A stretch of 64,000 bases of DNA from NCBI GenBank assembly GCA_943327105.2, contig CALPVV020000001.1, positions 3,276 to 67,275 of the forward strand. Reading direction: 5' to 3'. Position 1 is the stretch's first letter. Each line of letters opens with the position of its first letter. A model generated the notes under the pieces. That model was given only the letters and a program-made list of their open reading frames with translations, did no database searches and had not been told where the DNA came from. Origin of the DNA: Nitrosovibrio sp. Nv4 (GTDB taxonomy: Bacteria > Bdellovibrionota > UBA1018 > CAIMNF01). Of this stretch, positions 25,203 to 37,965 are shown in pieces. A program made the position numbers and the translations under genes.

Positions 25203-25259
25203 ACTCTTGATAAGCAAGAGTGATGCCAAACGATCGCCTAGAGTGATTGAATGATTTTA

Positions 25260-25526
25260 TTAATTTGATAATTTGGTTATGAAGTTTCGATAAGACGAAA
25301 ATTGAAGCTGAATGGCATTGATGTCATGTTGTGTTGCCCCAGTTTCTACCAGTTCACCAAATGAACTGATTTCAGGAAAACCATACATTGCACCATTGCC
25401 CTTGAGCTGATGACCAATTTTGAAGAGTAGATCATATTCTTTATTATGAAGGGCTGATTCGATTTGATCCAGTTCTTCTATTCTTCTATTGATGTAGGAT
25501 TGGAGTAGCTTTTCCGGTATTTTCAT
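25260..25526 (-). CDS. Hpt (histidine phosphotransfer) domain protein
   Basis: 88 aa, all-helical, with the canonical HQLKGNGAMYGF phospho-His motif. Confidence 0.75.
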   Translation of the reverse strand: MKIPEKLLQSYINRRIEELDQIESALHNKEYDLLFKIGHQLKGNGAMYGFPEISSFGELVETGATQHDINAIQLQFSSYRNFITKLSN

Positions 25527-25531
25527 TTCAA

Positions 25532-26206
25532 TTATGCCTGAAAGCGATAGCCTTCTCCGGCGCTTGATCGGATCACATGGCAGTATCGATCAAGTTTTTT
25601 ACGAAGATAACAGATGTGTGCATCAACAGTGCGTGTAGTAACGTGAATATCCTTACCCCAGATTTTATCAAGAATCATTTCACGACTAAAAGTCTGTTTA
25701 GGGTTCTTTGCCAAAAGATGGAGAATCTTAAACTCCCTCGGTGTCAAAGTGATGGGCGATTTAAGTCCGCTCAATCGAATGCTTTGGCTATGAAGTTCTA
25801 GAGTGATAGGCCCAGCTTGAAGTTGATCCATTTCGGTCTGTTTAGCCAGTCTTCGCTCAACCCTGGCCCTGAGTTCAAGCAAGTGAAAGGGTTTCGTAAT
25901 GTAATCTTCAGCACCAAACGAGAAGGCATCTACTTTAGAGCTTAAATCACTATTTGCACTCATGATGATCATGGGTGTGTGACGGTTCTTTTCATTTGTA
26001 AGAGCCTGCTCCAACAGATCCATTCCCTTTCCGTCAGGAAGATTCAAATCAACCAATATCAGTGAAAACCCTTCGGAATTGATTTTTCCAATCGCGGCAC
26101 CCATTGAACTACAGGTTTCAACTGCCAAGCCAGAAAGCTCCAAGCTGGCTTTAACCAGGTTGCTGAGTTCGACATCATCTTCAATCATTAGTATTTTCTT
26201 ATTCAT
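25532..26206 (-). CDS. OmpR/PhoB-family DNA-binding response regulator
   Basis: Receiver (ILMIEDD, LILVDLNLPDGKG, MSA, KPF) plus winged-helix (LTPREFKILHLLAKNP..FSRE.ILDKIWG......RTVDAHI..LRKKL). Confidence 0.9.
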   Translation of the reverse strand: MNKKILMIEDDVELSNLVKASLELSGLAVETCSSMGAAIGKINSEGFSLILVDLNLPDGKGMDLLEQALTNEKNRHTPMIIMSANSDLSSKVDAFSFGAEDYITKPFHLLELRARVERRLAKQTEMDQLQAGPITLELHSQSIRLSGLKSPITLTPREFKILHLLAKNPKQTFSREMILDKIWGKDIHVTTRTVDAHICYLRKKLDRYCHVIRSSAGEGYRFQA

Positions 26207-26308
26207 CGACTACGGTCTACTGCAATGAAGGTACCAGTGTAAAATGATTAATTTCGGTGCTTAAAAATAAAAAACACAAGTCATCAATTCTTCAAAAAAT
26301 CTTTAAAT

Positions 26309-27478
26309 TCATTTAAATTCATAGGGTTTTGACTGAATTAAAAAACAGTTGGGAGTGCCCAGTTGTGATCCGCATGTGTGGCATGTTGCCGGAGTGGGTT
26401 TGTTTCTCCCCTCGTATCTGATTTCATCAATAATGCTTTTTTTTCCACAGTTAATGCATCTTTTACTTTGCGACTGGGTGGTAATCTTTCCTTTATCTTC
26501 CGGATGTTCCTGATTCAGCGACCTTACCATTTGAAAAGGTGAAGTAAACCTCATTTCACTCAAGTTAACTCCGTTCAAGAATATGGAAACGGGGCCATCT
26601 TCAGAAATGGTGATTACAATTGCATGGGACACATCATATGAAAATCGAATTGAAGAGGTATGTCTTGTCCCCTTGTAGTTTGGGATTATTTTTTTACTCT
26701 TTGAAGAATAACGAATTTGAACCCCTGAGCTCATCAATACACCTTGTTGATTGATGAAGGTAGCGCCATCCGTCTGCGCTAATAAATGAAAAATTAACTT
26801 TATATGAGATTCGTCCATGAATGAAAGCTGGAGTGGTTCCAGGATTCCATTGGTTTTCTGAGGTGAAAGAAACCAAACTAAGATAGCCCCTACGTGTTCG
26901 GTTGGACTCAATAGATGATACGAAAATTCAAGTAGATTCTGTAAAACCCGTTTGTTTGTTTTTTCAACGCAAAAGCTGATGTTAGATGCCACGTTCTTGA
27001 TGTTTGGTTTGATAAGCCAGTTTCTTCGATCATGCAGAATGATTCTATCACCTTGGTAAATTCTGCATGTTCCGTTATTACTTCGGTTTAATATCAACCC
27101 CCCGGAGAGTGGAAAAAATTTCAGCATTTGAATTTCAGTTGATGATGATTCAGGAATCTTAATCAAACCGTAAAATGAGTTTTGAATAAACAGTGAATAC
27201 CAGTTGAGTCCATCAGCCATTTTTCGTGAAGTCTCGATTTGTTCTGGAAGTAATTTGATTTTTTCAAATTTATCGAAGTCATCAATCGATTCAACAAAAA
27301 TTGCGCCGTAAGAAAAAACAAACCCTTCATGAATCTTAGGTGCAATTGCAAAGTAAATTTCATCTATAATTTCTGGCGTGTTCAACCAGATGTTCGTTTC
27401 AAAGTTAAAGCCATTCAATTTTAATTCTTGAACAAGTATGATTTTCTGGTTTTTTTTTTGCTCATCACTTTCATGCAT
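26309..27478 (-). CDS. Diadenylate-cyclase-like (DisA_N/DAC-fold) protein with uncharacterised N-terminal region and C-terminal zinc ribbon
   Basis: aa ~195-300 carry the ordered DAC motif series: HVGAILV (cf. GALIV), QTDGATFI (cf. HDGAVII), KGTRHTSS (cf. GTRHRAA), ITISEDGPVSIF (cf. VVSEETGxIS). The C-terminus has CINC...CHTC. Confidence 0.6.
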   Translation of the reverse strand: MHESDEQKKNQKIILVQELKLNGFNFETNIWLNTPEIIDEIYFAIAPKIHEGFVFSYGAIFVESIDDFDKFEKIKLLPEQIETSRKMADGLNWYSLFIQNSFYGLIKIPESSSTEIQMLKFFPLSGGLILNRSNNGTCRIYQGDRIILHDRRNWLIKPNIKNVASNISFCVEKTNKRVLQNLLEFSYHLLSPTEHVGAILVWFLSPQKTNGILEPLQLSFMDESHIKLIFHLLAQTDGATFINQQGVLMSSGVQIRYSSKSKKIIPNYKGTRHTSSIRFSYDVSHAIVITISEDGPVSIFLNGVNLSEMRFTSPFQMVRSLNQEHPEDKGKITTQSQSKRCINCGKKSIIDEIRYEGRNKPTPATCHTCGSQLGTPNCFLIQSKPYEFK

Positions 27479-27580
27479 GACGTTTCATGATAGCCATATG
27501 CCGTAAAGAACGCGTTTAAATTAATTTTATACTTTTAGCATATATATTGCTGGTAAGAGTGTGGGATCTTTGTCCTGGGG

Positions 27581-28024
27581 ATGGCTATGGTTTCAAATGG
27601 ACAGCACATGGCGGTGTTGATAGTGGAAGATGATATTGCTGCATCTACACTGATTGATCGCGTGATGAGAAGTATCAGTCAAGATGTAGAGCTTGATTGG
27701 ACCACTTCAGCGGAAGAAGCAATCGAAATCATCGATACAGCGCATCGCTTAAAAATAAAACGACCATATGATTTAATTGTTTCTGATTTTTATCTTGATG
27801 GTTCCAAAAATGGACTGGATTTTTGGAACACCTGTCGGGACTTATTTCCCGATATACCTTTTGTCCTCATGTCGTCTTATGAGCCTGATTTTTTCATGCA
27901 AGATGACAGTGGTGTTTTGGTCCCTTATTTCCTTAAAAAGCCATTTAATTTACGTCAATGCAGGGACTTCTTTTCAGGTTTTTTCAAAAACAGTCAAAAA
28001 CCTGGATTATTAAATCTAAAGTAA
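27581..28024 (+). CDS. Single-domain response regulator (receiver)
   Basis: VLIVEDDIAAS, DLIVSDFYLDGSKNG, VLMSS, LKKPF. Divergent from the DAC-like gene. Confidence 0.75.
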   Translation: MAMVSNGQHMAVLIVEDDIAASTLIDRVMRSISQDVELDWTTSAEEAIEIIDTAHRLKIKRPYDLIVSDFYLDGSKNGLDFWNTCRDLFPDIPFVLMSSYEPDFFMQDDSGVLVPYFLKKPFNLRQCRDFFSGFFKNSQKPGLLNLK

Positions 28025-28605: not shown

Positions 28606-29088
28606 ATGATCAATCAAGCAGATATCAATATTGGAATTTATGAAACAGACCGAAGAGAAGTTGCAACCCAACTTGCAGTGCTACTTGCAGACACTTATCT
28701 TCTCTATTTAAAAACCCAAAATTTTCATTGGAACGTAACTGGAAAAATGTTCGGAACACTTCATCTACTTTTTGAGAACCATTATAAAGAAATGGCTGAG
28801 TCGATTGATGACATTGCTGAAAGTATCAGAGAGCTTGGATTTCATGCCCCGGCTACTTTTGAAGAGTTTCAGAAAAGAACTGCGATTCGTGAACCCGTTG
28901 GAATTCCCAAAGCCCAAGAGATGATACTTGAATTGGTGGTGGGCCATGAAGTGGTGATTGAAACAGCTCGAATACTGTTAGAAACTGCTCAAGTTGCAGG
29001 TGATTCTGCTACGGCTGATCTGGCAGTGAGAAGAATCCAAGCTCATGAAAAAGCGGCATGGATGCTAAGAAGCCATCTTGAAGATTGA
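28606..29088 (+). CDS. dps: Dps-family DNA-binding ferritin-like protein
   Basis: LADTYLLYLKTQNFHWNVTG..F..LH..FE..Y ferroxidase-site pattern. 160 aa. Confidence 0.9.
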   Translation: MINQADINIGIYETDRREVATQLAVLLADTYLLYLKTQNFHWNVTGKMFGTLHLLFENHYKEMAESIDDIAESIRELGFHAPATFEEFQKRTAIREPVGIPKAQEMILELVVGHEVVIETARILLETAQVAGDSATADLAVRRIQAHEKAAWMLRSHLED

Positions 29089-29091
29089 TGA

Positions 29092-29898
29092 TCAATAGTT
29101 GATCATTGAATCTTTTTGTTTTGCTTCCTGTTCAAGGTCCACCGCGCCTTTTTGCTCTGTATTTTTTATTTCTGGTGCAGAAGCAGGAACTCTTTCCGGT
29201 TGTTCCAATGGGTTTAATCCACTTGCTACTGTCGGTGTCATGCTAATACCGTATTTTGAGAATACCGAATCACTGCTATTAGCTTTTGATTCGAGTGAAA
29301 TCCACGGTTCCATTGATGAACCATTCAGGCCTTGCATTACCGCAATGCTGTTTTCAGAGTTTGGGGTAACTTTTCGGAAAAAAACCCATTCTGAAATTTT
29401 AGAATAATATTGAGTTGCCCAACGTAAATATCTGGAATCGTGATAAAGGTCTAGAAATGCATTTGCAACGGGAGTAATGAACCCAAAGGTTTCAAATACC
29501 TTTTTCTGTCTGTCACCCCAAGTGGTATCAGATTGAAGTGTTTCTTGTAGCTTTGAAATTTTTGAATAAAAGCACCAGTGCATCCTTTCCGGGTCGCCAG
29601 ATACCAATTCAGTTGCACCTTTTTTACGTTCCTCGATGCTATTGGTTAGTGTAGTCAGTTTTTGGAATTCAGAATCACAATTAGTCGCAAATTCGCCTTC
29701 GGCATCCATTGGTGCTAAAGGACTGTGAAAAATCGACCTTAAGCTGGCAAGTTCAAAACTTGCCGGATGGGGTACTTTTACATATTCAGGAACTTCAGGA
29801 AGAGCAGGTCGTTCCTGCACAATTGTAGTGCTGGAGCATCCTGTGATCATCGTCAGAACTAAAACGGTTATTACCCTGCCTTGAATTTCAAGTCTCAT
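29092..29898 (-). CDS. Hypothetical lipoprotein
   Basis: MRLEIQGRVITVLVLTMITGCSS lipobox. No recognisable domain. Divergent from the operon at 30021. Confidence 0.55.
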   Translation of the reverse strand: MRLEIQGRVITVLVLTMITGCSSTTIVQERPALPEVPEYVKVPHPASFELASLRSIFHSPLAPMDAEGEFATNCDSEFQKLTTLTNSIEERKKGATELVSGDPERMHWCFYSKISKLQETLQSDTTWGDRQKKVFETFGFITPVANAFLDLYHDSRYLRWATQYYSKISEWVFFRKVTPNSENSIAVMQGLNGSSMEPWISLESKANSSDSVFSKYGISMTPTVASGLNPLEQPERVPASAPEIKNTEQKGAVDLEQEAKQKDSMINY

Positions 29899-30020
29899 AT
29901 ATTCGATCCTCACCTTCTCACTTATCGTCAACTTCTTGAAAAACGTTAATTTTATGTCGCTATTTTAATATTGTTATTTTTTTTCAAGAACTTAATGGGT
30001 GTGTCCGATCAGCAATTGTG

Positions 30021-31121
30021 ATGAACCGAAGACACTTAAAAACAGGCGCTTTGAAAGTATTTTCATCGGTATTGGCAATCGTTGTGGGATCAATGAATTC
30101 CGCAGCCGCAGCTGAACCACCGGCTCCGAATGGTGCAAGAAACTTCTATGGAGTACTCGATGAAGTTCTTGCTGATTTCGAATATGACCTCAAGTCGGGT
30201 CAAGTGACAGGGTTGAAGGATCTTTCGATCCGAAATATTGCCACCAGCGAGAATGTACCTTCTTCATTCAAACCTCATTTGGAACTTTTGATCACTGAGC
30301 GGATCATGAAAACTACAAAGACTAGAATCGTACATTGTGTCTCATGTAGGGCTAAAAAGACCACCCTCGATTCCCAGTCGATGGTGATTTCGTCACCAGA
30401 CTCAAGCGGTCCTGAAATGCAGAGAATTGCAAAAATGAACGGTATTCAGAATTATATGGATATCGCTTTTGCTTATCAGCCTTCAGGGATGATTCTTTCA
30501 CTTCAAATCAGTGATGCAGAATCAAATAGTACCGTTTGGACTAGAAGTTATAATTCTGAAAATACCAGAGCATCGGCTATGAGACGTGGAGTGGATCCGC
30601 AACAGGCTGAAGAAGCAAAGTTCAAGATGGAATACATGCCGACACTACAGGTGAAACCAACGATATACACACTCATGGCACCAAAAGCTGGTAGTGGTTA
30701 TTCGACTTCCCTTGGGTTGGGTTTGCGGATGATGGAAAGATACGACAATCGCCAAAAAGAAGTTGGATTTGAAATGAACTACTACATGGACATTTCAAAA
30801 CTGATCGGAATAACCCAATCGGATAATAACGTCTGGGCCAAATTCAACCTGACGATGCTATTCATGCATGCTTGGGGACTTTTTGGAGAAGAAGAAAATT
30901 TCAATAAAACTCGTGGTGTGATTCACGCCGGAATTGGAGGCAGTTATGCATCCGGATTCTTGGGTGGTCTGGTTAGAGGTGGTTATGAATGGCGTTTTGC
31001 CAAGCATTGGACCCTGACTTCTTTCCTGGGTTATCGCCCAAAAGCAACGGTATTAATTTCTGGTACACAATCATCTTTGACAGGTGTTGAAGGAGGACTC
31101 GGTGTTGGCTACATATTCTAA
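30021..31121 (+). CDS. Outer-membrane protein: N-terminal alpha/beta periplasmic domain plus C-terminal beta-barrel-like region (hypothetical)
   Basis: Signal peptide ..SMNSAAAA. The C-terminal half has alternating-hydrophobicity strands rich in G/Y and ends in ..GLGVGYIF (terminal Phe, an OMP signature). Confidence 0.6.
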   Translation: MNRRHLKTGALKVFSSVLAIVVGSMNSAAAAEPPAPNGARNFYGVLDEVLADFEYDLKSGQVTGLKDLSIRNIATSENVPSSFKPHLELLITERIMKTTKTRIVHCVSCRAKKTTLDSQSMVISSPDSSGPEMQRIAKMNGIQNYMDIAFAYQPSGMILSLQISDAESNSTVWTRSYNSENTRASAMRRGVDPQQAEEAKFKMEYMPTLQVKPTIYTLMAPKAGSGYSTSLGLGLRMMERYDNRQKEVGFEMNYYMDISKLIGITQSDNNVWAKFNLTMLFMHAWGLFGEEENFNKTRGVIHAGIGGSYASGFLGGLVRGGYEWRFAKHWTLTSFLGYRPKATVLISGTQSSLTGVEGGLGVGYIF

Positions 31122-31125
31122 ATTC

Positions 31126-31821
31126 ATGATGGCGCTTCTGGCTGTAATGACCGTAAGCGGTTGTGCAACCCGTAATCAACAGGAAAAGTTCCGCCCGATC
31201 GACAATCCCTTTGCCGAATCAGGTTGGCAAGCAAGTGATGAAAATAAAAATCTCACTTTCAGAACTAAAAACGGAGATCAAACTGTAGAAGTGGAGATTC
31301 CACATCAGTATGATTCTGATCTTTCGGTGCCAATGAACTTGAATAAGAGCACTGTGAAGGATCAAAAATCAAACGCCGGTGTTGATTACTCATATTCTGA
31401 AATGAAACCTTCCATAGCAGACCGAGAAATCGCATCTACGTTTAATTCTACAGGAACATTTGAAGACGAAAGACGTAAACGCGAAATCGAACAGGGCCTA
31501 GGACTTCAGGAAGTCGATGAGCTGCCTAAGATGGATGAAAGTTATCTTGGAAAGTTAGATGTAGTGAAGCAGCTTTTTAAAAACAAACGTATGGAAGCAT
31601 CTTTGATTGAAATCGACAAAATGATCAAGGATTACCCGACTGATGCAAAGTTATTTGAAATGCGTGGTACGGTACTCGATCGCCTCGGATACCGTGATCT
31701 TGCTCTTCGCTCCTGGAAGCAATCGTTAGAGTTTAAACCAGAACAAATTGCACTTAAAAAAGTAGTGGATAAGCGTGAAGCACAGCGTTCTGTTGCATCA
31801 GAAAAAATGGAGAATAAATAG
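31126..31821 (+). CDS. TPR-repeat lipoprotein
   Basis: MMALLAVMTVSGC lipobox. C-terminal TPR-like units (DAKLFEMRGTVLDRLGYRDLALRSWKQSLEFKPE). The gene starts 4 nt after the upstream stop. Confidence 0.7.
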   Translation: MMALLAVMTVSGCATRNQQEKFRPIDNPFAESGWQASDENKNLTFRTKNGDQTVEVEIPHQYDSDLSVPMNLNKSTVKDQKSNAGVDYSYSEMKPSIADREIASTFNSTGTFEDERRKREIEQGLGLQEVDELPKMDESYLGKLDVVKQLFKNKRMEASLIEIDKMIKDYPTDAKLFEMRGTVLDRLGYRDLALRSWKQSLEFKPEQIALKKVVDKREAQRSVASEKMENK

Positions 31822-34134
31822 ATGAAATCGAATTTGATGACAATCCTCACATTCATCGCCATGATTCATACCGCTCATGCGGCTCCATCGACACTCGATG
31901 TGAAAAAACACGGCGAACAAGAAATCAAACAAGTGATTGAACCGATCGTAGAAAAATACTGCCATGAGCAGTGCCGCGTGGTTCACATTGAAACTGAAGT
32001 TGATCTCGCGGTTGATGATCTGACCACACCTGGCTTTGAAGATGGCGGCGGTAAGGTTACTTTGGCACCGGCAAGCGGCAAGGTTAAATTATTGATTGAT
32101 GAAAATCTTGGTAGCAAAAACCGTGGAATGATTATTGATTTGATGAAAGAACACTTTCTTTCATTGAATTTTCCTGTAGAGCTTGATGTTAAGGTTTCCA
32201 GGTTTCCACAGCCGGCATCATCTAACTATAAGACGGCTGAATTACGGGATAAGGTATCTCGCGACATTAAAAACTCCATCAACTCGCTTCTTACTCAATT
32301 CTGTTCAAAGCACTGTGTATTGGGTGAATTCGATGTTCAAACTGAGGCAGTCAACCCTGAAGATATTGACTATGCTTCCAATCAAGAATACTTCCAGGAC
32401 GGGCCTGCCGCTGTACGTGTGAAAAGTGTTAAGGCCAATATTATGGTTGATGAGATGATGCCATCGGCAGAAGCCGCAGGAATTATTGAAATGGCCAAAG
32501 TAAAAGTTGCTCAGTTCAAGAATGCAGACATTACTAGTCAAACCATGAAGTTTCCTAAAAGTGCAGAAGAGTTGAATGCTGCAATCGCATCAGCTGAAAC
32601 CAATGGCAAGAATGGCCGTATGCCTTCTTCAACGACTACTAATGACAACAAGGAAATGCGTGACAGTAAAGAAGTACACGACAGCAAGGAAGTCAAAGAT
32701 TCCAGAGAAATGAAAGACTCTAAAGAGTCTAAAACCGAAAATATTACCAAAAATGAAACCGGTAATAGAAGTGAACGATTTGAAAAATACGAAAAAATTG
32801 AACGGGTTGAAAATGGTGATGCGGTTCAGAAAACACTGGATAAGTTCCGTCTCTACGGAATCATCATCTCGGCAATCATTCTTGCTCTACTCTGTACTCT
32901 GGTTGTAACTTCGTTCCGGAAGCAGATCTTCACTACACTTGGGTTTCCAGGTGGTGGTGGCGATGGAAAAAGCAACGAAAGCAAGATTACACATTCATAT
33001 TCTTATGGTGGACTGAGTGATCCTTCCCTGACTAGTGATGAGAAGGGCGCTTTGATTGCACGTCGAATCGAAGCAAGCAACCTTTATAATGAGATGATCA
33101 ACATTTTCGGTGAGCAACCGAAAGTGGCGAAACATGTCTTTACCAATATTCTCACCGAAGAGGGAGTTGAAGAGGTTGCTAAATACCTTGAAATGTTTGG
33201 TGAGTCGGTGATGATGGATCTTTTGAAGGATCCTGGTCTTCAAACCGATTGTGCCGAGTTGATGGAATTTTACAGCAAAAACACATTCGAACTTTCTGAA
33301 GATGAAAAATTCAATCTTTTGAAGCGTCTTCACCATAGAACAACCACTGCCAAGATGCAGATCTTTGGAAGTAGATCGGCGACATTGTTCGATTTCCTTG
33401 CCGAAATGGAATCAAATCAGATTTCAGATATGGTCAAGAACGAGTCAAATACGGTCAAGGCGATCATTCTTACTCAATGTGATCAGAAAAAGCGCCAAGC
33501 TGTATTCAATTCTTATGATGAGGGCTTGAGATTAAAGTTGATGACAGAGTTGTCGCGAATCGATCATTTGCCTAAGAACTATATCTTTAACGTAGCATCG
33601 GCGCTACGTCGTAAAAAGGCAGAAAATCCGAAGTACAATACTGAAGCATTGCCAGGTTCAGATGTATTGGTTTCTTTCCTTGAGAAATCAGGTCTTGAAA
33701 CACAAAAGGCGATTGTTCAGCAATTGATGAGTTCTTCCAGCGGTGATGCGATTCATGCACTCAAGTCGAAATTGGCAAGTCTTGAATCGATACGCTACAT
33801 GAAGGACAGTCAGGTGACTGAGATTGCAACAAGCTTGAAGCACGACGAGTTCGTTCAATTTGTCAAAGGTACAACCGCTGACATCCGTGATGCGATCTTG
33901 AATAAAGTTTCACATGACTTGGCGATCGAGTTGTCTGAAGAAATTGATCTGGTTGAGGCTGTTGGTAGAGATACCTTCCTTTCGATTGAGCGTAAGATTC
34001 TGAATAAAATCAAAATTCTTGCAAACCAGGGTCAGATCAATCTCGCAGAAGTGAATGAAAAGATGTTTGCCAATGAGTTCGGTTTCGACACCACAAGTGA
34101 AATCGATGCATCAGACATGAAGAGAGTAGGATAA
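31822..34134 (+). CDS. Membrane-anchored FliG homologue: signal peptide + about 320-aa periplasmic domain + 1 TM + FliG N/M/C-like cytoplasmic domains
   Basis: The C-terminal ~400 aa are collinear with FliG. LTSDEKGALIA (cf. LTGxEKAAILL), FDFL..M...Q..DMVKNES.TVKAIILTQ.D...R..V....DE.LR..LM.E.SR, and VKGTTADIRDAILNKVSHDLAIELSEEIDL..AVGR....IERKIL.....LANQGQI (cf. E. coli LKGA...LREKFLRNMSQRAADILRDDLANRGPVR...VENEQKAIL...RRLAETGEM). TM helix at 32851-32916. Confidence 0.7.
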   Translation: MKSNLMTILTFIAMIHTAHAAPSTLDVKKHGEQEIKQVIEPIVEKYCHEQCRVVHIETEVDLAVDDLTTPGFEDGGGKVTLAPASGKVKLLIDENLGSKNRGMIIDLMKEHFLSLNFPVELDVKVSRFPQPASSNYKTAELRDKVSRDIKNSINSLLTQFCSKHCVLGEFDVQTEAVNPEDIDYASNQEYFQDGPAAVRVKSVKANIMVDEMMPSAEAAGIIEMAKVKVAQFKNADITSQTMKFPKSAEELNAAIASAETNGKNGRMPSSTTTNDNKEMRDSKEVHDSKEVKDSREMKDSKESKTENITKNETGNRSERFEKYEKIERVENGDAVQKTLDKFRLYGIIISAIILALLCTLVVTSFRKQIFTTLGFPGGGGDGKSNESKITHSYSYGGLSDPSLTSDEKGALIARRIEASNLYNEMINIFGEQPKVAKHVFTNILTEEGVEEVAKYLEMFGESVMMDLLKDPGLQTDCAELMEFYSKNTFELSEDEKFNLLKRLHHRTTTAKMQIFGSRSATLFDFLAEMESNQISDMVKNESNTVKAIILTQCDQKKRQAVFNSYDEGLRLKLMTELSRIDHLPKNYIFNVASALRRKKAENPKYNTEALPGSDVLVSFLEKSGLETQKAIVQQLMSSSSGDAIHALKSKLASLESIRYMKDSQVTEIATSLKHDEFVQFVKGTTADIRDAILNKVSHDLAIELSEEIDLVEAVGRDTFLSIERKILNKIKILANQGQINLAEVNEKMFANEFGFDTTSEIDASDMKRVG
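32650..32735 (+). repeat. About four imperfect 21-nt tandem repeats encoding KE(M/V)xDS(K/R)
   Basis: Translation is KEMRDSKEVHDSKEVKDSREMKDSKESK. It lies in the periplasmic juxtamembrane linker of the FliG-like protein. Confidence 0.7.
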
Positions 34135-34138
34135 CCGT

Positions 34139-34924
34139 ATGAATATTTCATCTTTAGTCGGAGTATTGGTTGGTCTTGCGGTAGTAGCCGCATCTCTCAC
34201 TGAAACAGGAATGGATCTGAAGTTCTTCCTGAACTTCCACGGAGTGGTGATTGTCTGTGGTGGAACATTCGCTGCAGCTGCAATCAGCTATCCATTGAAC
34301 AAGATCTTTATGTTGACGAAGGTGTTCTTCAATCGGTTGCTGGGTAAATCTAAAATCGATTACCAGGCAACAATTGAACAGATGCTCGATATCAATAAGA
34401 AGTTTTCACTAGGTCTTGTGAGCGGCAACGATGCTGCCAACCTAGCAACACACCCTTTCTTGAAAGAGGCTGTGATCTTGGTTGCAGACGGAGTGCTTTC
34501 AGAAAAAGAAATTCGTGCCGTGCTGGAGCAGCGATTAAAAACAATCGAATATCAGTATCATCATGAGGCGCAAATGTTCAAAGCACTCGGAAAGTATCCG
34601 CCGGCTTTTGGACTTCTTGCAACTACGCTTGGTATGATCGCATTACTTCAAAAAATCGGACAGCCGGGCGCGGAGAAACTAATTGGACCGGCGATGGCAA
34701 TCGGTCTTGTTGGAACCCTTTATGGAATTGGCTTGGCAAACTTGTTCTTCATTCCAGTATCGGATGCACTTGTTGATAAAACGGAAGATGAAATGGCGCT
34801 TCGAAGAATGATGGTAGAAGGTGCGGTTTTGCTCAAACAAAGAGTGAACCCATTATTCATGCGCGAAAACCTGAATTCCTTCCTGATGCCAAAAGACCGT
34901 ATTCGCAGAAAGTCGGCAGCTTAA
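34139..34924 (+). CDS. MotA/PomA-like stator channel subunit (4 TM with long TM2-TM3 cytoplasmic loop)
   Basis: 261 aa. Two N-terminal TM helices, an ~100-aa loop, then YPPAFGLLATTLGMIALL and IGLVGTLYGIGLANLFFIPVSD (MotA_ExbB channel signature including the conserved Pro positions). Confidence 0.85.
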   Translation: MNISSLVGVLVGLAVVAASLTETGMDLKFFLNFHGVVIVCGGTFAAAAISYPLNKIFMLTKVFFNRLLGKSKIDYQATIEQMLDINKKFSLGLVSGNDAANLATHPFLKEAVILVADGVLSEKEIRAVLEQRLKTIEYQYHHEAQMFKALGKYPPAFGLLATTLGMIALLQKIGQPGAEKLIGPAMAIGLVGTLYGIGLANLFFIPVSDALVDKTEDEMALRRMMVEGAVLLKQRVNPLFMRENLNSFLMPKDRIRRKSAA

Positions 34925-34925
34925 T

Positions 34926-35720
34926 ATGGCAGTCATTCGAAAGCTTGAAAAGCCACAAGAAGAAAATACGCTCTATATCATCGACAAGAAAAGGTCGAAG
35001 GAAGAGCATAGTGATTCAAACTGGATTATCAGTTACGCGGACATGATGACCCTGCTCTGTATTTTTTTCATCATGCTTTTCAGCATGTCGAAGATGAATA
35101 CACCCGAATTTGAATCGGTAAAGAAAGAAGTATCCGAACACTTTGGTGCAAAGTATGAGTCACCTACGGAAGATCTGGGTAAATTCATCAATATGGTTTT
35201 AGTTGAAGCCGGAGTTGAAAAACAGGTGACGATGACCAGCGATGGTACCAGTGTGAGTGTGGCTTTCCATTCAACGATGTTTTTCGATACTTTGAGTGCA
35301 GAGATTTCACCAGCTGGTAAAGAGATCGTTGAAAAAATAGCGACCAAGCTGAATGAGTATCAAACAAAGAAGAACAAAAAATATAAAATCGTGATCGAGG
35401 GTCATACTGATAGTCAAGCTGTTGTCGGTGGTCCTTTCCCGAGTAACTGGGAACTTTCCAGTGCCCGTGCTACACGAGTAGTGCGCCTGTTTATTGATAA
35501 GAGCTTTGACCCTAAAGTGATGTTACCGATTGGTTTTGCTGATACACAGCCTCTCGGGGCTGATCGCAATTCAGATGGAACTTGGAATGGTGAAAACTTG
35601 GCGAAAAACCGTCGCGTGATACTGAAGATTCTTTTGCCAGAGGCTGAGAATGTCACATTTGGTAAAAAAGAAACGCAAACTCCAGCGCCTGCCTCAGTTC
35701 CAGAACCAGTAAAGCAATAG
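34926..35720 (+). CDS. MotB-like stator subunit with OmpA-type peptidoglycan-binding domain
   Basis: NWIISYADMMTLLCIFFIMLF (single TM with the conserved ion-binding Asp). C-terminal IEGHTDS...SNWELSSARATRV...NRRV OmpA-like motif. It starts 1 nt after the motA-like stop. Confidence 0.85.
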   Translation: MAVIRKLEKPQEENTLYIIDKKRSKEEHSDSNWIISYADMMTLLCIFFIMLFSMSKMNTPEFESVKKEVSEHFGAKYESPTEDLGKFINMVLVEAGVEKQVTMTSDGTSVSVAFHSTMFFDTLSAEISPAGKEIVEKIATKLNEYQTKKNKKYKIVIEGHTDSQAVVGGPFPSNWELSSARATRVVRLFIDKSFDPKVMLPIGFADTQPLGADRNSDGTWNGENLAKNRRVILKILLPEAENVTFGKKETQTPAPASVPEPVKQ

Positions 35721-35748
35721 GAAAATCTTACCGGCTGATTTCGGCCTA

Positions 35749-35979
35749 ATGACATGGGAACATGAAATGATGAAATTGAAGAACAGATTCAAAAAACCTG
35801 CTTCGAGAATAAAGGCACAAGATATCTGGGCTGAGAAAGCACCTTTATTTATTTCTCTTTTCCTTTTTGCGTTCGGAATGGGAATGATCGCCGATGGTAA
35901 AAAGATGTATGCAAATCAACTTCGGTTGTCTGAACGCGTTGATTACCGTGCTACTTTCAATCCTTTCCCGAAGAATTAA
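35749..35979 (+). CDS. Small hypothetical membrane protein
   Basis: 76 aa with one hydrophobic helix (APLFISLFLFAFGMGMIA). Possibly the last gene of the upstream operon. Confidence 0.4.
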   Translation: MTWEHEMMKLKNRFKKPASRIKAQDIWAEKAPLFISLFLFAFGMGMIADGKKMYANQLRLSERVDYRATFNPFPKN

Positions 35980-36101
35980 AAAAAAACCCAACCGGAATCA
36001 CAAATTGCTTTATGAGTTCGACTGGGTTTCCAGGTTGGATGTTTTAACTTGGTGTCGTACGGCCAACACTAAAAATTTTAATTACATTGCTGTAAAAAAA
36101 A

Positions 36102-36176
36102 TGGCTCAGGAGGAGGGATTCGAACCCCCGACCAATCGGTTAACAGCCGATTGCTCTACCACTGAGCTACTCCTGA
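36102..36176 (-). tRNA. tRNA-Asn (anticodon GTT)
   Basis: The reverse complement reads TCAGGAG-TA-GCTC-AGTGGTA-GAGC...CGGCTGTTAACCG (loop CTGTTAA)...GGGGGTTCGAATCCCTC-CTCCTGA-G-CCA. Full cloverleaf with 7-bp acceptor stem and encoded CCA. Confidence 0.95.
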
Positions 36177-36261
36177 ATAAAAAGTAGTTGTATAAAATAA
36201 GTAACGAAAAACGGTCGCGTTGTCTATAGCTTTTAAATCGAAGTCTCGTTACCTTTAAAGA

Positions 36262-37965
36262 ATGAAAAGGATTTCTAACTTTATTCCCACTTTTTTTGTG
36301 GTTTTTGCAGTGTTTCATTTTTCGGATTTAAATGCTCAACCGTTTGATAAGCGTGCGTCAAAGTCGGTTTCCAAATCAAAATCATTGAAAATGCCCCCTT
36401 TACGCCAGCCCGCTGAGTATCGGCTTCTTGAGAAGATCAAAAAAGAGACCAATTTATCGAAGTTAACGGTCCAGCAGATTCAGTCTCACCAACGAGAGCT
36501 GAAAAATCTGGAATGGACCTCGACCAATAAGACTTTTGAAAAAGAAATCGAAGATCTTTTTTGGTATTTGGAAATTGTTCGGGCTGAAAAGCAGGGTGGA
36601 ACCGCTGCACTGAATGCGTGGATGAAGGCTTTGAGTTCACTCAATCAATTCAAATGGATTTATGGTTGGACCGAAACGACTTCTAAGTCTTTGGTCTCCA
36701 TTTGCAAGAAATCAAAGCCTGCAAAAACCTTCGCCCAAAAACAAATAGAGGAAAAATGCGCTTATCTTTCAAAAAAAGTGAATGATGCGTTTCCGAAAGG
36801 CGCGCTTGAAACCCAGTCGCTGAAAGAGCTGATAGCTGAACAAAATGGTGCAATCGATGCTGTGACCGATCGCTTTGATCGTTTGGGCCAATCCTATACT
36901 GAAAAAACTGAAAAAGACGAAGATGAGTTTGTAGAGGTGCTTGATCACTACTTGAACCATCGTGATAGTGACCTTTATCGGGCTGGAAAAACGTTTATCG
37001 AAACGTATCCAAAGTCGATGCTTCGCTTTCGAACTTTGTTTTTGATTGCAGAAAGACAATTTGCAAACGGAGATAAAAAAGAGGCTGAAAAAAACTATCT
37101 ACAAATCATCAATCAGGTTCCTTACGGATATTACTCGATCGTTTCGAGTGAGCGTCTTGGGCTTTCTTTGCCTGAAAAACTTGAAAAAGCGCCTTTAGCG
37201 CCACTCGAGGATCTTTCCGATGCAAAACTGACCTTGATGGAAAAAGATGCATTGTGCCGGGTTGAGAATCTGGTACAGCTGAAAAAGCAGGAACCCGTTT
37301 CCATCGAGCTTGAACAATTTTCCCGCATCAGATCTTATCCGACCACATTCTTGATTCACTTGCTTAAGCAGGCGAATCAGTCAGGGCAAGATCTGGCAGG
37401 GTTTCGTTTTGCCACCGAGATTTTACAGCGAAAAGGCGAAGCCCCATTGAATGCAGGGTTTGTTGATTTGATATTCCCCGATCGTTTTCAAAAAGAAATT
37501 GCACAGCAGGCGAGCCTTTCAAAGATCGACCCCCTTTTGGTGATTTCTCTGATGAAGCAAGAGTCGGGTTTTAAGCGGTCGATTCTTTCAAGCTCTGGGG
37601 CCGTCGGCCTGATGCAGTTGATGCCATTTACAGCGCTTGAGGTGCAGAAGGATCTTTATCTTCGTAATTTGCGTGAGCCTGCTAAAAACATCGAAGTCGG
37701 TACGAAGTATCTTGCATCGCTATTGAATGAAAAATTCAATGGCAATGTCGTTTATGCGCTAGCCGGTTACAATGCCGGTCCGCATCGAGTGGGTAAGTGG
37801 AAAAAAGAAGTCAAGACCGACTGGGGAATGCAGGAGTTCATCGAGTCGATTCCTTACAAAGAAACGCGGGATTATGTGATGTCGATTCTCAGAAATCGCT
37901 ACTGGTACCAGTATCGCAAGGGAATGAAGCCACAAAGCGTATTTGAAGCATGGCGTTCGCCTTGA
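36262..37965 (+). CDS. Soluble lytic murein transglycosylase (Slt70-like: superhelical N-domain + SLT catalytic domain)
   Basis: Signal peptide. C-terminal LMKQESGF....S.SGAVGLMQLMPFTA ... AGYNAGPHRV catalytic signature. Confidence 0.85.
   Translation: MKRISNFIPTFFVVFAVFHFSDLNAQPFDKRASKSVSKSKSLKMPPLRQPAEYRLLEKIKKETNLSKLTVQQIQSHQRELKNLEWTSTNKTFEKEIEDLFWYLEIVRAEKQGGTAALNAWMKALSSLNQFKWIYGWTETTSKSLVSICKKSKPAKTFAQKQIEEKCAYLSKKVNDAFPKGALETQSLKELIAEQNGAIDAVTDRFDRLGQSYTEKTEKDEDEFVEVLDHYLNHRDSDLYRAGKTFIETYPKSMLRFRTLFLIAERQFANGDKKEAEKNYLQIINQVPYGYYSIVSSERLGLSLPEKLEKAPLAPLEDLSDAKLTLMEKDALCRVENLVQLKKQEPVSIELEQFSRIRSYPTTFLIHLLKQANQSGQDLAGFRFATEILQRKGEAPLNAGFVDLIFPDRFQKEIAQQASLSKIDPLLVISLMKQESGFKRSILSSSGAVGLMQLMPFTALEVQKDLYLRNLREPAKNIEVGTKYLASLLNEKFNGNVVYALAGYNAGPHRVGKWKKEVKTDWGMQEFIESIPYKETRDYVMSILRNRYWYQYRKGMKPQSVFEAWRSP

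What the first reader, a model, noticed from the sequence alone, without database searches (positions are those of the whole stretch)
31822..34134. Natural FliF-topology/FliG fusion: periplasmic repeat domain with paired CxxxC motifs, one TM, then FliG N-M-C with the FliM-binding EHPQR motif lost
The protein starts with a cleavable-looking signal peptide (..IHTAHA/AP). Its ~320-aa periplasmic part contains at least two similar alpha-beta units, EIKQVIEPIVEKYCHEQCRVVHIETEVDL and LRDKVSRDIKNSINSLLTQFCSKHCVLGEFDVQTEAV. Each has a CxxxC motif, and the helix-then-strand pattern is reminiscent of the ring-building motifs of FliF/SctJ-type proteins (inference only). After a K/E/S/D-rich linker and one TM helix, the cytoplasmic part aligns by eye with all three FliG domains. 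The torque-helix region reads VKGTT..IRD.IL.KVSHDLAIELSEEIDL..AVGR. The equivalents of E. coli K264, D288/D289 and R297 look conserved, but R281 falls on H/D. The FliG EHPQ(R) segment, which contacts FliM, reads ESNTV. Direct membrane tethering would remove the need for a FliF-FliG_N interaction, and the lost EHPQR motif fits the absence of a C-ring partner.
Basis: partly seen in the sequence, partly recalled or inferred. Interest (0 to 1): 0.8.

Follow-up and report, generated by a model that had tools for sequence, protein, structure and literature searches.

The report
Membrane-anchored FliG-like rotor protein with own stator
This gene encodes one protein that joins a FliF-like periplasmic head to a FliG-like torque domain, and it is always encoded next to its own MotAB-type stator and outer-membrane partners, which suggests an undescribed non-flagellar use of the flagellar torque machinery.

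Summary
ORF 31822-34134 (+) encodes a 770-aa protein. It has a signal peptide, two duplicated alpha-beta-beta-alpha-beta units each with an invariant CxxxC, a 78-aa low-complexity spacer, one TM helix, and a cytoplasmic part that passes the Pfam thresholds for FliG_M and FliG_C.

An AlphaFold model of the periplasmic part (pLDDT 81) finds the FliF MS-ring as its best PDB match. A FliG_N domain could not be shown.

The gene lies in a tight operon: outer-membrane barrel with a TolB-N-like domain, TPR lipoprotein, fusion, MotA, MotB. The operon is conserved in all 79 related loci, all from Bdellovibrionota. Related shorter and longer fusions elsewhere also sit next to MotAB.

The FliM-binding EHPQR motif and the MFXF switch hinge are lost. 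The R281 position is acidic in 70 of 71 members, and the partner MotA has changed at its matching charged positions. Carriers also have real flagella.

Most likely this is a separate, non-switching motor module in which MotAB acts on a membrane-tethered FliG-like domain and passes work to the outer membrane. Whether it is a rotating ring or a TonB/TolA-like tether is open. I found no paper describing it.

The parts
29092..29931 (-). Divergently transcribed predicted lipoprotein (279 aa, lipobox ..ITGC), with no known domain. It is conserved next to the module.
   Evidence: Sequence. tblastn finds it in most of the 79 related loci at the same position and orientation. An ORF clustering over loci with enough upstream DNA recovered it in 46. 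No Pfam or PADLOC hit.
30018..31121 (+). Outer-membrane protein (367 aa): signal peptide, a periplasmic alpha/beta domain of the TolB-N / LpoB / FlgT type (aa ~43-180), and an 8-stranded beta-barrel (aa ~209-365).
   Evidence: AF2 model has pLDDT 79. Foldseek against the PDB: TolB 4pwz E 1.5e-7, LpoB 4q6l 6e-5, FlgT 3w1e 4.5e-4, and the barrels OmpW, NspA, OmpX and OmpA. The family has 314 proteins at 50% identity or more. Present in every locus with enough upstream DNA.
31084..31821 (+). Lipoprotein (245-aa ORF; the likely true start is the ATG at about 31126, giving MMALLAVMTVSGC). The C-terminus has about two TPR repeats.
   Evidence: Lipobox and invariant Cys are seen. A family profile against the PDB finds TPR proteins over positions 169-245. 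Weak NlpI/PilW/MamA TPR hits. Conserved in all loci.
31822..34134 (+). The finding itself: a 770-aa fusion protein made of signal peptide, 2 RBM-like units, spacer, TM helix and FliG-like M and C domains.
31822..31881 (+). Signal peptide (aa 1-20), with predicted cleavage after AHA.
   Evidence: Sequence. The AxA site is conserved in close relatives. The segment is too short to score as a TM helix. Cleavage is inferred, not shown.
31891..32217 (+). RBM-like unit 1 (aa ~24-132): helix, long beta-hairpin with the invariant PGF tip, helix, strand. CxxxC at C47/C51.
   Evidence: AF2 secondary structure, FliF as top Foldseek hit, invariant columns.
32218..32565 (+). RBM-like unit 2 (aa ~133-248), a duplicate of unit 1. 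CxxxC at C161/C165.
   Evidence: hhalign of unit 1 against unit 2 gives 98% probability, E 2.3e-13.
32566..32790 (+). Low-complexity E/K/S/N/T-rich periplasmic spacer (aa ~249-323).
   Evidence: Composition and length range of 35-105 aa. Pro/Glu-rich in the short subfamily.
32791..32829 (+). Invariant juxtamembrane motif EKIERVENGDAVQ (aa 324-336), on the periplasmic face just before the TM helix. Function unknown.
   Evidence: Invariant columns. Absent from the divergent subfamilies.
32851..32919 (+). Single TM helix (aa ~344-366), followed by RK, which places the C-terminus in the cytoplasm.
   Evidence: Hydropathy scan.
33052..33411 (+). Conserved ~120-aa cytoplasmic region (aa 411-530) where a FliG_N domain would sit. 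Homology to FliG_N or to the FliF C-tail was not demonstrable.
   Evidence: Conservation. Negative tests. The A. aeolicus FliG alignment reaches back only to FliG residue 64.
33415..33630 (+). FliG middle domain (aa 532-603). EHPQR is replaced by NESNTV. E541 and R579 (E. coli E125 and R160) are invariant.
   Evidence: Pfam FliG_M 28.2 bits against cut-off 25. Residue counts.
33742..34044 (+). FliG C-terminal domain (aa 641-741).
   Evidence: Pfam FliG_C 40.3 bits against cut-off 23.3. PDB FliG alignments.
33865..33969 (+). Torque-helix region (aa 682-716): K682, D699 (R281 position, reversed charge), E706/E707, R716.
   Evidence: Alignments to A. aeolicus and E. coli FliG. Frequencies in 71 members.
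34139..34924 (+). MotA/PomA-type stator A subunit (261 aa), starting 5 nt after the fusion gene. Its charged loop is altered.
   Evidence: PDB phmmer: C. sporogenes MotA 8ucs/6ysf 1.6e-31, PomA 7e-25. Pfam MotA_ExbB. Residue statistics.
34926..35720 (+). MotB-type stator B subunit (264 aa): TM helix with the conserved Asp (..SYADMMTLL..), plug, and OmpA-like peptidoglycan-binding domain.
   Evidence: Pfam MotB_plug 61 bits and OmpA 54 bits. NCBIfam MotD/MotS/MotB hits are all below equivalog cut-offs.

Best explanation
The operon encodes a self-contained, non-flagellar rotor-stator module built from paralogues of flagellar parts.

Proposed mechanism:
1. MotB anchors the stator to peptidoglycan.
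2. Ion flow turns the MotA pentamer.
3. MotA's cytoplasmic loop pushes on the torque helix of the FliG-like C domain through a re-wired electrostatic interface.
4. That domain is tied covalently, through one TM helix and a periplasmic spacer, to two FliF-like ring-building units. I propose the protein oligomerises into a small MS-ring-like ring carrying its own torque ring, and that the whole ring is driven in one direction only. There is no FliM site, no switch hinge and no export apparatus.
5. The periplasmic head meets the outer-membrane barrel/TolB-N-like protein and the TPR lipoprotein encoded upstream, so inner-membrane ion-motive force is delivered to the outer envelope.

In most lineages a small cyclic-nucleotide-binding protein encoded between the fusion and motA probably regulates the module.

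Shown: domain homologies, predicted folds, topology, gene linkage, and residue changes on both partners.
Inferred: MotA-FliG-like contact, ring formation, rotation, contact with the outer-membrane proteins, and the biological role (perhaps surface movement or prey contact in these predatory lineages).
For: (1) True FliG M and C homology: Pfam scores above cut-off in 35/35 members. The family profile hits FliG in the PDB and no MgtE.

(2) Periplasmic part: two alpha-beta-beta-alpha-beta units (AF2 pLDDT 81). The best PDB matches are FliF MS-ring chains 7bk0_B (E 1.6e-7) and 6scn_A (1.4e-6), followed by EscJ, PrgK/PrgH-type and CdsD.

(3) Obligatory linkage to a flagellar-type stator: MotA and MotB are adjacent in every locus that extends far enough. 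They are also adjacent in three divergent subfamily loci with a different gene order. MotA is closest to the solved flagellar stators, and MotB has the plug and OmpA domains.

(4) Charged residues changed on both partners. The FliG-like R281 position is D/E in 70/71 members. The MotA positions equivalent to PomA R88/K89 are never basic, E96 is never acidic, E97 stays acidic, and a KK pair appears three residues earlier in 68/68. Other subfamilies show different but again complementary-looking patterns.

(5) Loss of the FliM-binding EHPQR motif and of the MFXF hinge fits a motor with no switch complex.

(6) Co-conserved envelope partners and overlapping or abutting genes indicate a single complex.

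(7) Covalent FliF-FliG fusions assemble rings in Salmonella (PMC6079021), a FliF-FliG fusion structure is deposited (8z4d), and motor structures from two fusion mutants are cited in PMC4768692.

(8) Carriers have flagellin genes and a visible flagellum, so this is an extra system, not the flagellar rotor itself.
Against: - No oligomer was modelled or observed.
- The RBM-like fold also occurs in proteins that do not form rings. BON, KH-like and OsmC folds appear lower, and the global TM-scores to FliF are only about 0.3.
- The 35-105-aa low-complexity spacer between head and membrane would transmit torque poorly and has no counterpart in FliF.
- There is no axle, rod or secretion gate, so the purpose of rotation is unknown.
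- FliG_N, which helps organise the FliG ring on FliF, was not detected.
- The charge co-variation rests on alignments of short loops and on few independent lineages.
Confidence: 0.45

Rival explanations
1. TonB/TolA-like force transducer rather than a closed rotor. Single or few copies of the fusion sit at the rim of a MotA5B2 unit. MotA rotation drags or winds the FliG-like domain and its TM helix. The long periplasmic spacer passes a pulling force to the distal RBM-like head, which grips the TolB-N-like outer-membrane protein or the TPR lipoprotein. This would be a Tol-Pal or Ton analogue assembled from flagellar parts.
For: - The architecture is a membrane anchor, a long low-complexity spacer (35-105 aa; Pro/Glu-rich like TonB in the short subfamily) and a distal globular domain.
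- The partner set parallels Tol-Pal: a TolB-N-like domain, a TPR protein comparable to CpoB, and an OmpA-like peptidoglycan anchor on MotB.
- A weak TonB_C-like protein lies in one short-subfamily locus.
Against: - TonB and TolA couple to their motors through the TM helix, not through a cytoplasmic domain.
- Here a complete FliG M-C unit is kept. In every known case that unit works as one tooth of a ring.
- The head's best structural match is a ring-forming protein.
- The motor is MotAB-type, not ExbBD/TolQR-type.
Confidence: 0.28
2. Accessory part of the real flagellum. The fusion and its MotAB assemble at or around the flagellar basal body, for example as an extra stator scaffold, a brake or decoy for stators, or a sheath-related structure. 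In this reading it is not an independent machine.
For: - Carriers are flagellated.
- Flagellin genes lie within 4.5 kb of the module in 19 loci.
- FlgT, a flagellar H-ring protein, is among the fold matches of the outer-membrane partner.
- TPR proteins (PflA, PflB) are listed among the periplasmic scaffold proteins of the Campylobacter motor (PMC13023049).
Against: - No other flagellar gene (fliM/N, flg, flh, fliF) is part of the conserved module.
- In the window it sits among housekeeping genes.
- The FliM-binding motif is lost and the stator-rotor charges are re-wired, which points to insulation from the flagellar motor rather than cooperation with it.
- The flagellin linkage is seen in a minority of loci.
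Confidence: 0.15
3. Decaying or co-opted relic with no mechanical role, for example a membrane scaffold or signalling protein that merely keeps FliG-like folds, like the short Chlamydiaceae FliF-FliG(M) fusion.
For: - Precedent: Chlamydiaceae keep a FliF-FliG fusion without a flagellum (PMC4768692).
- Several FliG hallmark motifs are lost.
Against: - Strong purifying conservation across a phylum: 38-100% identity over the full length, with dozens of invariant residues including the torque-helix region.
- An intact stator with the plug and conserved Asp is always co-encoded.
- The acidic pair and the flanking basic residues of the torque helix are kept.
Confidence: 0.07

Closest known systems
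FliG, the flagellar rotor/switch protein (Pfam FliG_M PF14841, FliG_C PF01706; TIGR00207)
   Same: Homologous middle and C-terminal domains, including the torque helix with its acidic pair and flanking basic residues. The positions equivalent to E. coli E125 and R160 are invariant, and a PG replaces the Gly-Gly linker. It is encoded next to a MotAB stator.
   Different: Membrane-anchored and 770 aa long. The TIGR00207 score is 57.8 against a cut-off of 226.7. EHPQR and the MFXF hinge are lost, the R281 position has reversed charge, the N domain is not detectable, and no fliM or fliN lies nearby.
FliF MS-ring protein and the SctJ/SctD ring-building-motif proteins
   Same: Periplasmic alpha-beta-beta-alpha-beta units. 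FliF chains are the top Foldseek hits, followed by EscJ, PrgK/PrgH-type and CdsD. The overall topology is a periplasmic head followed by a TM helix and a cytoplasmic C-terminus.
   Different: No Pfam YscJ_FliF match. Two duplicated units with a CxxxC signature and long hairpins instead of RBM1-2-3 with a beta-collar. A cleavable-type signal peptide replaces TM1. A long low-complexity spacer precedes the TM helix. Ring formation is untested.
Engineered Salmonella FliF-FliG fusions (PMC6079021; PDB 8z4d/8z4g, seen)
   Same: One polypeptide carries both the MS-ring protein and FliG. The fusion assembles rings (PMC6079021).
   Different: Those are laboratory fusions of full flagellar proteins working inside a complete flagellum with a C-ring and an export gate. 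This is a natural, diverged paralogue with its own stator and outer-membrane partners.
Chlamydiaceae natural FliF-FliG fusion (Bergeron 2016, PMC4768692)
   Same: A natural fusion of two RBM-type periplasmic domains to a FliG-like cytoplasmic domain, outside a complete flagellum.
   Different: The chlamydial protein is about 330 aa with two TM helices and only a FliG_M-like region, and that paper proposes it acts with the injectisome. This one has FliG_M plus FliG_C with a torque helix, and is always next to motAB.
Tol-Pal and TonB-ExbBD energy-transduction systems
   Same: A 5:2-type ion-driven motor, an inner-membrane protein with a long periplasm-spanning low-complexity spacer and a distal globular domain, a TolB-N-like partner, a TPR protein and an OmpA-like peptidoglycan anchor.
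   Different: The motor is MotAB-type. Coupling would go through a cytoplasmic FliG-like domain rather than through the TM helix. Polarity is reversed (C-terminus inside). No sequence homology to TolA or TonB was found.
FlgY/FlbB/MotE E-ring proteins (PMC13023049)
   Same: Membrane-anchored proteins with MgtE_N/FliG-like ARM domains that form rings at flagellar motors.
   Different: In those proteins the ARM domain is periplasmic and has no FliG_C torque helix. Here the FliG-like part is cytoplasmic and passes the FliG_M and FliG_C thresholds.

Membership tests
FliG (flagellar motor switch protein) | FliG_C domain carrying the torque helix | tested here: met
   Pfam PF01706 scores 40.3 bits against cut-off 23.3. 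It matches 35/35 members, best E 6.8e-16. The profile aligns to PDB FliG chains through the C-terminus.
FliG (flagellar motor switch protein) | FliG_M domain | tested here: met
   Pfam PF14841 scores 28.2 bits against cut-off 25. It matches 35/35 members.
FliG (flagellar motor switch protein) | FliG_N domain that binds the FliF C-terminal tail | tested here: inconclusive
   Pfam FliG_N matched 1/35 members at E 0.0086. The profile of aa 408-532 found no FliG or FliF in the PDB. hhalign against E. coli FliG gave E 0.53. A conserved region of the right size, about 120 aa, is present.
FliG (flagellar motor switch protein) | EHPQR motif (FliM-binding surface of FliG_M) | tested here: not met
   The motif reads [N]-E-S-[L/N]-T-V in 71 members. 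Only the Glu is kept.
FliG (flagellar motor switch protein) | Conserved torque-helix charges K264, R281, D288, D289, R297 (E. coli numbering) | tested here: not met
   K264 is kept (62/71) and D288/D289 stay acidic. R281 is D/E in 70/71. The R297 position is S/N/G, with Arg one residue later.
FliG (flagellar motor switch protein) | MFXF hinge used for direction switching | tested here: not met
   The aligned segment reads K-L-V-S-[LVI]-[DE]-T-L.
FliG (flagellar motor switch protein) | Full-length equivalog score (TIGR00207, at least 226.7 bits) | tested here: not met
   57.8 bits, covering model positions 106-330 only.
FliF / SctJ ring-building-motif proteins | RBM fold (alpha-beta-beta-alpha-beta) in the periplasmic region | tested here: met
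   The AF2 model has two such units, pLDDT 81. Foldseek top hits are FliF 7bk0_B E 1.6e-7 and 6scn_A 1.4e-6, both at probability 1.0. Global TM-scores are only about 0.3.
FliF / SctJ ring-building-motif proteins | Sequence membership (Pfam YscJ_FliF) | tested here: not met
   No such hit in the window protein or in any of the 35 members. An exhaustive HMM search with the periplasmic profile recovered only this superfamily. The ten weaker hits I sampled with Pfam were FliG-like fusions, not FliF.
FliF / SctJ ring-building-motif proteins | Assembly into a homo-oligomeric ring | not testable with these tools
   No multimer prediction or experiment was available.
FliF / SctJ ring-building-motif proteins | Two TM helices flanking the periplasmic region (FliF) | tested here: not met
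   There is one TM helix (aa 344-362). The N-terminus looks like a cleavable signal peptide. Cleavage itself was not tested.
Flagellar-type MotAB stator | MotA with four TM helices and a cytoplasmic domain homologous to solved flagellar stators | tested here: met
   phmmer against the PDB: 8ucs/6ysf 1.6e-31, 9lu9 1.6e-30, PomA 6.7e-25, each over the full length.
Flagellar-type MotAB stator | MotB with the conserved channel Asp, plug and OmpA-like peptidoglycan-binding domain | tested here: met
   MotB_plug 61 bits and OmpA 54 bits. The Asp lies in ..SYADMMTLL.. (sequence).
Flagellar-type MotAB stator | Conserved rotor-facing charges (PomA R88/K89 and E96/E97; E. coli R90 and E98) | tested here: not met
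   In 68 family MotAs the R88/K89 positions are never basic and the E96 position is never acidic. E97 is D/E in 66/68. A KK pair sits three residues upstream.
Flagellar-type MotAB stator | Equivalog-level identity to a named flagellar stator (NCBIfam cut-offs) | tested here: not met
   Best scores are MotP 142 bits against 394 and MotD 135 bits against 283.
Chlamydiaceae FliF-FliG fusion | About 330 aa, two TM helices, FliG_M-like region only | tested here: not met
   This protein has 770 aa, one TM helix, and FliG_M plus FliG_C. The chlamydial description is from PMC4768692.
TonB/TolA energy transducers | Membrane anchor, long periplasmic spacer and distal globular domain | tested here: met
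   This is a resemblance in architecture only.
TonB/TolA energy transducers | Partner motor of the ExbBD/TolQR type, and homology to TonB or TolA | tested here: not met
   The motor matches MotA/PomA. No TonB or TolA Pfam hit in the fusion.
Zorya anti-phage system | ZorA plus ZorB with ZorC/D or other Zorya-specific partners | tested here: not met
   In PADLOC only MotB matches the ZorB models, which is generic MotB homology. MotA, the fusion and the neighbours have no hits.

The most novel reading that the evidence does not exclude
This is a free-standing rotary motor with no flagellum attached. A FliF/FliG-like ring would be spun by its own MotAB stators and coupled across the periplasm to an outer-membrane complex. 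It would be a new envelope machine of predatory bacteria (Bdellovibrionota, with relatives in Bradymonadales-like genomes). It could be either a derived offshoot of the flagellar motor or a survivor of a rotor-stator pair older than the flagellar export apparatus.
Probability: 0.3. Interest if true: 0.95.

Novelty: new variant of a known kind. Interest (0 to 1): 0.8.

Why it matters
In the literature I could search, torque generation between MotA and FliG appears only in the flagellum. A 2025 survey names the plug-and-OmpA-bearing MotAB clade 'flagellar ion transporters' (PMC12505986).

Here a stator of that type is locked, across a whole phylum and beyond, to a membrane-tethered FliG-like protein. 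That protein cannot be the flagellar rotor. It has no FliM site, no switch hinge and no export gate, and it sits in organisms that also have flagella.

If the module works as proposed:
- It is a minimal rotor-stator pair that could be reconstituted far more easily than a flagellar motor.
- It is a natural example of two electrostatically insulated rotor-stator pairs in one cell.
- It adds a data point on how the flagellar motor arose from, or gave rise to, simpler 5:2-motor machines such as Tol-Pal, Ton and the type 9 motor.
- It may point to an unknown envelope function in predatory bacteria.

Tried and rejected
(1) I first took the 540-620-aa proteins that weakly match unit 1 to be FliF. Pfam shows they are not. 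They are a short one-unit subfamily with a weak FliG_C/MgtE_N tail, also encoded next to motAB.

(2) FliG_N and FliF C-tail homology of aa 408-532:
- A by-eye match of 'EQPKVAKHV' to FliF 'DPRVVALV', plus a weak local hmmsearch hit.
- This was not borne out by the PDB profile search or by hhalign.
- I dropped it.

(3) A profile of the outer-membrane partner against PDB sequences found nothing. Only the fold search was informative.

(4) Zorya or another defence system was rejected by PADLOC.

(5) The promoter and terminator scan of 28900-36400 was no better than shuffled sequence.

(6) The rest of the window holds no flagellar genes. I read the ORF translations by eye only.

(7) Literature searches for a membrane-anchored or non-flagellar FliG-like protein with MotAB returned no description of this family. 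The library lacks most subscription-journal papers, so this is not proof of absence.

(8) The E. coli MotA alignment was unreliable in the loop region because of its larger insertion. I used PomA and C. sporogenes MotA as references instead.

(9) The alignment of the divergent lipoprotein failed on a coordinate error and I did not repeat it.

Full report
**1. What is there**

The ORF at 31822-34134 (+) is real and encodes 770 aa. It starts one base after the stop of the upstream lipoprotein gene. It ends 5 nt before a motA-like gene, which is followed after 1 nt by a motB-like gene. Reading from the N-terminus:
- A signal-peptide-like N-terminus ending in AHA/AP.
- Two related units, aa ~24-132 and ~133-248.
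- A 78-aa E/K/S/N/T-rich spacer.
- An invariant motif, EKIERVENGDAVQ.
- One strong TM helix, aa 344-362 (hydropathy scan).
- A variable cytoplasmic linker.
- A conserved ~120-aa region.
- FliG_M (aa 532-603, 28.2 bits against cut-off 25) and FliG_C (aa 641-741, 40.3 bits against cut-off 23.3).

**2. Is the FliG homology specific?**

Yes, for the M and C domains.
- Both Pfam domains are found in all 35 diverse members scanned.
- TIGR00207 aligns positions 106-330 of 338, but at 57.8 bits against a cut-off of 226.7.
- A family profile searched against all PDB sequences finds FliG chains (3hjl 1.3e-12, 3ajc, 1lkv, 4fhr, and the FliF-FliG fusion 8z4d). The only other hits are two designed repeat proteins. 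There is no MgtE.

The N domain is a different matter. Pfam FliG_N hits 1 of 35 members weakly. A profile of aa 408-532 finds no FliG or FliF in the PDB. hhalign against E. coli FliG and FliF gives E 0.5 and 0.2. A region of the right size exists, but homology is not shown.

**3. Residue-level check (71 family members; alignments)**

| E. coli FliG feature | Window residue | Family (n = 71) |
|---|---|---|
| K264 | K682 | K in 62 |
| R281 | D699 | D50, E20, N1 (charge reversal) |
| D288 | E706 | acidic in 71 |
| D289 | E707 | acidic in 66 |
| R297 | G715 | S/N/G; conserved Arg one residue later (R716, 62) |
| EHPQR | N-E-S-N-T-V | Glu invariant; H, P, Q lost |
| R160 | R579 | invariant |
| MFXF hinge | L-A-S-L | replaced by L-V-S-[LVI] |

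From what is established about FliG, EHPQR is part of the FliM-binding surface and MFXF is the hinge used in direction switching. I infer that this protein neither binds a FliM-type switch nor reverses.

**4. The periplasmic half**

An AlphaFold2 model of aa 22-250, built on 33 sequences, has mean pLDDT 81. It shows two alpha-beta-beta-alpha-beta units with unusually long hairpins.

Foldseek against the PDB puts FliF MS-ring chains first: 7bk0_B at E 1.6e-7 and 6scn_A at 1.4e-6, both with probability 1.0. Further FliF entries follow, then EscJ, PrgK/PrgH-type and CdsD. Global TM-scores are low, about 0.3, because the two units are oriented differently from those in FliF. Unrelated alpha/beta folds (OsmC, BON, ribosomal proteins) appear at E of about 1e-3 and weaker.

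The two units are duplicates of each other (hhalign 98%, E 2.3e-13).

The CxxxC pair sits at the helix-to-strand junction of each unit. It is found in every unit of every subfamily examined. In some members the first motif is Cx9C, which suggests an intramotif disulfide rather than a metal site. That is inference.

There is no Pfam YscJ_FliF match. So 'RBM-like, FliF-like fold' is supported, while membership of the FliF family and ring formation are not established.

**5. Context and conservation**

The protein has more than 120 full-length homologues at 38-100% identity. Sources name them 'hypothetical', 'FliG C-terminal domain-containing protein' or, wrongly, 'FliG'.

A scan of one genome per GTDB species found 79 loci. 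Almost all are metagenome bins, labelled Bdellovibrionales, Bacteriovoracaceae, Oligoflexia or Bdellovibrionota, with a few labelled otherwise, such as Lysobacteraceae or Alphaproteobacteria. The scan used two peptide patterns, so absence elsewhere is not proven.

In every locus with enough flanking DNA the same genes recur in the same order:
- A divergent lipoprotein (window 29092-29931, minus strand).
- An outer-membrane protein (30018-31121).
- A TPR lipoprotein (31084-31821).
- The fusion, then MotA, then MotB.

The partners were characterised as follows:
- The outer-membrane protein models (pLDDT 79) as an N-terminal alpha/beta domain plus an 8-stranded barrel. The domain matches TolB-N (E 1.5e-7), LpoB and the Vibrio flagellar H-ring protein FlgT. 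The barrel matches OmpW, NspA, OmpX and OmpA.
- The lipoprotein ends in about two TPR repeats.
- MotA is closest to solved flagellar stators (C. sporogenes MotA 1.6e-31, PomA about 1e-24).
- MotB has the plug, the channel Asp and an OmpA-like domain.

These are the features that PMC12505986 uses to define 'flagellar ion transporters'.

**6. A wider superfamily**

An exhaustive HMM search of 1.84 billion representative proteins with the periplasmic profile found 161 clusters. Besides the 720-840-aa family there are two other forms:
- About 970-aa forms with an N-terminal extension.
- A 540-620-aa subfamily with a single CxxxC unit, a Pro/Glu-rich TonB-like spacer and a weaker FliG_C/MgtE_N tail.

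Their genes also sit with motA, motB, a TPR protein and predicted outer-membrane proteins, but in a different order, with motAB before the fusion. One short-form protein is labelled Persicimonas sp., a member of Bradymonadales, which is another predatory group. That label is a single lead, not a survey.

Linkage that survives gene rearrangement across subfamilies is the strongest evidence that MotAB and the FliG-like protein work together.

**7. Changes on both sides of the presumed interface**

In 68 family MotAs:
- The positions equivalent to PomA R88/K89 are never basic.
- The E96 position is never acidic (N/Q/K/S/H).
- E97 stays D/E in 66 of 68.
- A K/R-K/R pair appears three residues upstream in 68 of 68.

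In the flagellar motor, MotA R90 pairs with FliG D289 and MotA E98 pairs with FliG R281 (stated in PMC12505986). Here the FliG-side Arg has become acidic, and the MotA-side Glu has become neutral or basic. The acidic pair on the torque helix and a basic pair on MotA both remain.

Two other subfamilies show different but again matching-looking combinations. This is what one would expect if the pair had evolved a private interface insulated from the flagellar motor of the same cell. The alignments cover short loops and few independent lineages, so I treat this as supportive, not conclusive.

**8. Coexistence with flagella**

Flagellin genes lie within 4.5 kb of the module in 19 loci. FG-1 and FG-2, which carry the module (L050, L065, L066), were seen by TEM to have a single thick polar flagellum (PMC13200544). 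The window itself shows no other flagellar gene (read by eye). The module is therefore an additional system. No fliM, fliN, flh or flg gene is part of the conserved neighbourhood.

**9. Mechanism**

The best-supported step is that MotAB acts on the FliG-like C domain. Beyond that there are two possible geometries.

- **Rotor model.** Both halves of the protein are homologous or structurally closest to the two ring-forming rotor proteins. FliF-FliG fusions are known to assemble rings (PMC6079021; 8z4d). A FliG M-C unit is known only as one tooth of a ring.
- **Tether model.** The 35-105-aa low-complexity spacer is proline-rich in the short subfamily. The partner set recalls Tol-Pal: a TolB-N-like domain, a TPR protein and an OmpA-like anchor.

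I favour a non-switching ring whose periplasmic head is held away from the membrane and contacts the outer-membrane proteins (confidence about 0.45). The TonB/TolA-like transducer is the main rival (0.28). A flagellar accessory role (0.15) and a non-mechanical relic (0.07) are less likely.

**10. What is known**

I found no paper describing this family. The nearest precedents are:
- The engineered Salmonella FliF-FliG fusions.
- The ~330-aa Chlamydiaceae FliF-FliG(M) fusion, which has no FliG_C (PMC4768692).
- The periplasmic MgtE_N-type E-ring proteins FlgY, FlbB and MotE (PMC13023049).

None of them combines FliG_M plus FliG_C, a membrane anchor, RBM-like units and a dedicated stator. PADLOC excludes Zorya.

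**11. Verdict**

The FliF-like/FliG-like fusion, the lost FliM site and the MotAB partnership hold. The N domain, ring formation and the absence of a C-ring in the cell are unproven.
- The system looks like a new variant of the flagellar-type rotor-stator machine, or more broadly of 5:2-motor envelope machines.
- Interest is high because it would move MotA-FliG torque generation outside the flagellum and offers a much simpler system in which to study it.

Noticed in passing
L022:10299-10706 and the equivalent gap in 58 of 71 related loci; absent from the window (5 nt between 34134 and 34139): Most family loci carry a ~168-aa cyclic-nucleotide-binding-domain protein between the fusion gene and motA (Pfam cNMP_binding, E 3.6e-18 and 2.2e-20). 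The window's clade (12 loci) lacks it. It is a likely regulator of the module, and its ligand is unknown.
   Followed up: partly
L013:7555-8454, L022:12340-13275 and 39 further loci, directly after motB; not present in the window: A ~320-aa protein with an N-terminal zinc ribbon and a C-terminal bacterial SH3 domain follows motB on the same strand in 41 of 67 loci. It may be a further component of the module.
   Followed up: partly
L015:2130-2963 (-) and 18 other loci, within 4.5 kb upstream of the module: Flagellin genes (Pfam Flagellin_N 2.6e-36, Flagellin_C 2.1e-21) lie near the module in 19 loci. This shows that the carriers have flagellar genes. The linkage is confined to a minority of loci.
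   Followed up: partly
L083:7385-10836, L085:1588-4903, L082:6536-10961: Divergent subfamilies of the fusion are encoded after motA-motB rather than before. One is 585-611 aa with one CxxxC unit and a Pro/Glu-rich spacer. Another is 986 aa with an N-terminal extension. Each has a TPR protein upstream and an unknown 325-345-aa protein downstream. One relative is labelled Persicimonas sp. (Bradymonadales).
   Followed up: partly
window 32791-32829 (aa 324-336 of the fusion): The juxtamembrane motif EKIERVENGDAVQ is invariant across the Bdellovibrionota family and missing from the other subfamilies. It is the most conserved periplasmic element and has no assigned role. It lies where the MotB plug and the MotA periplasmic loops would be.
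   Followed up: no
window 36102-36176 (-) and 36262-37965 (+): A tRNA-Asn gene and a 567-aa protein with an SLT lytic-transglycosylase domain (Pfam 5.4e-27) follow motB. In 6 of the 7 loci where it was found (the closest clade) the SLT gene lies right after the module; in L043 a weak match lies upstream on the opposite strand. This is probably local synteny rather than part of the module.
   Followed up: partly
L065 and L066 (two contigs of 'Bdellovibrionota bacterium FG-1'): The FG-1 assembly holds two copies of the module at contig ends (41% and 40% identity to the window protein). The assembly came from about 100 sorted cells, so these may be two strains rather than two paralogues.
   Followed up: no
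window 24681-28024: Upstream of the module lie several response-regulator-like genes, an Hpt-like gene, and a 389-aa protein ending in a Cys-rich zinc-ribbon-like tail. I judged these by eye from the translations only. Two of them (the 389-aa protein and one response regulator) were compared with the related loci and have counterparts only in the closest one (L001); the others were not compared.
   Followed up: no
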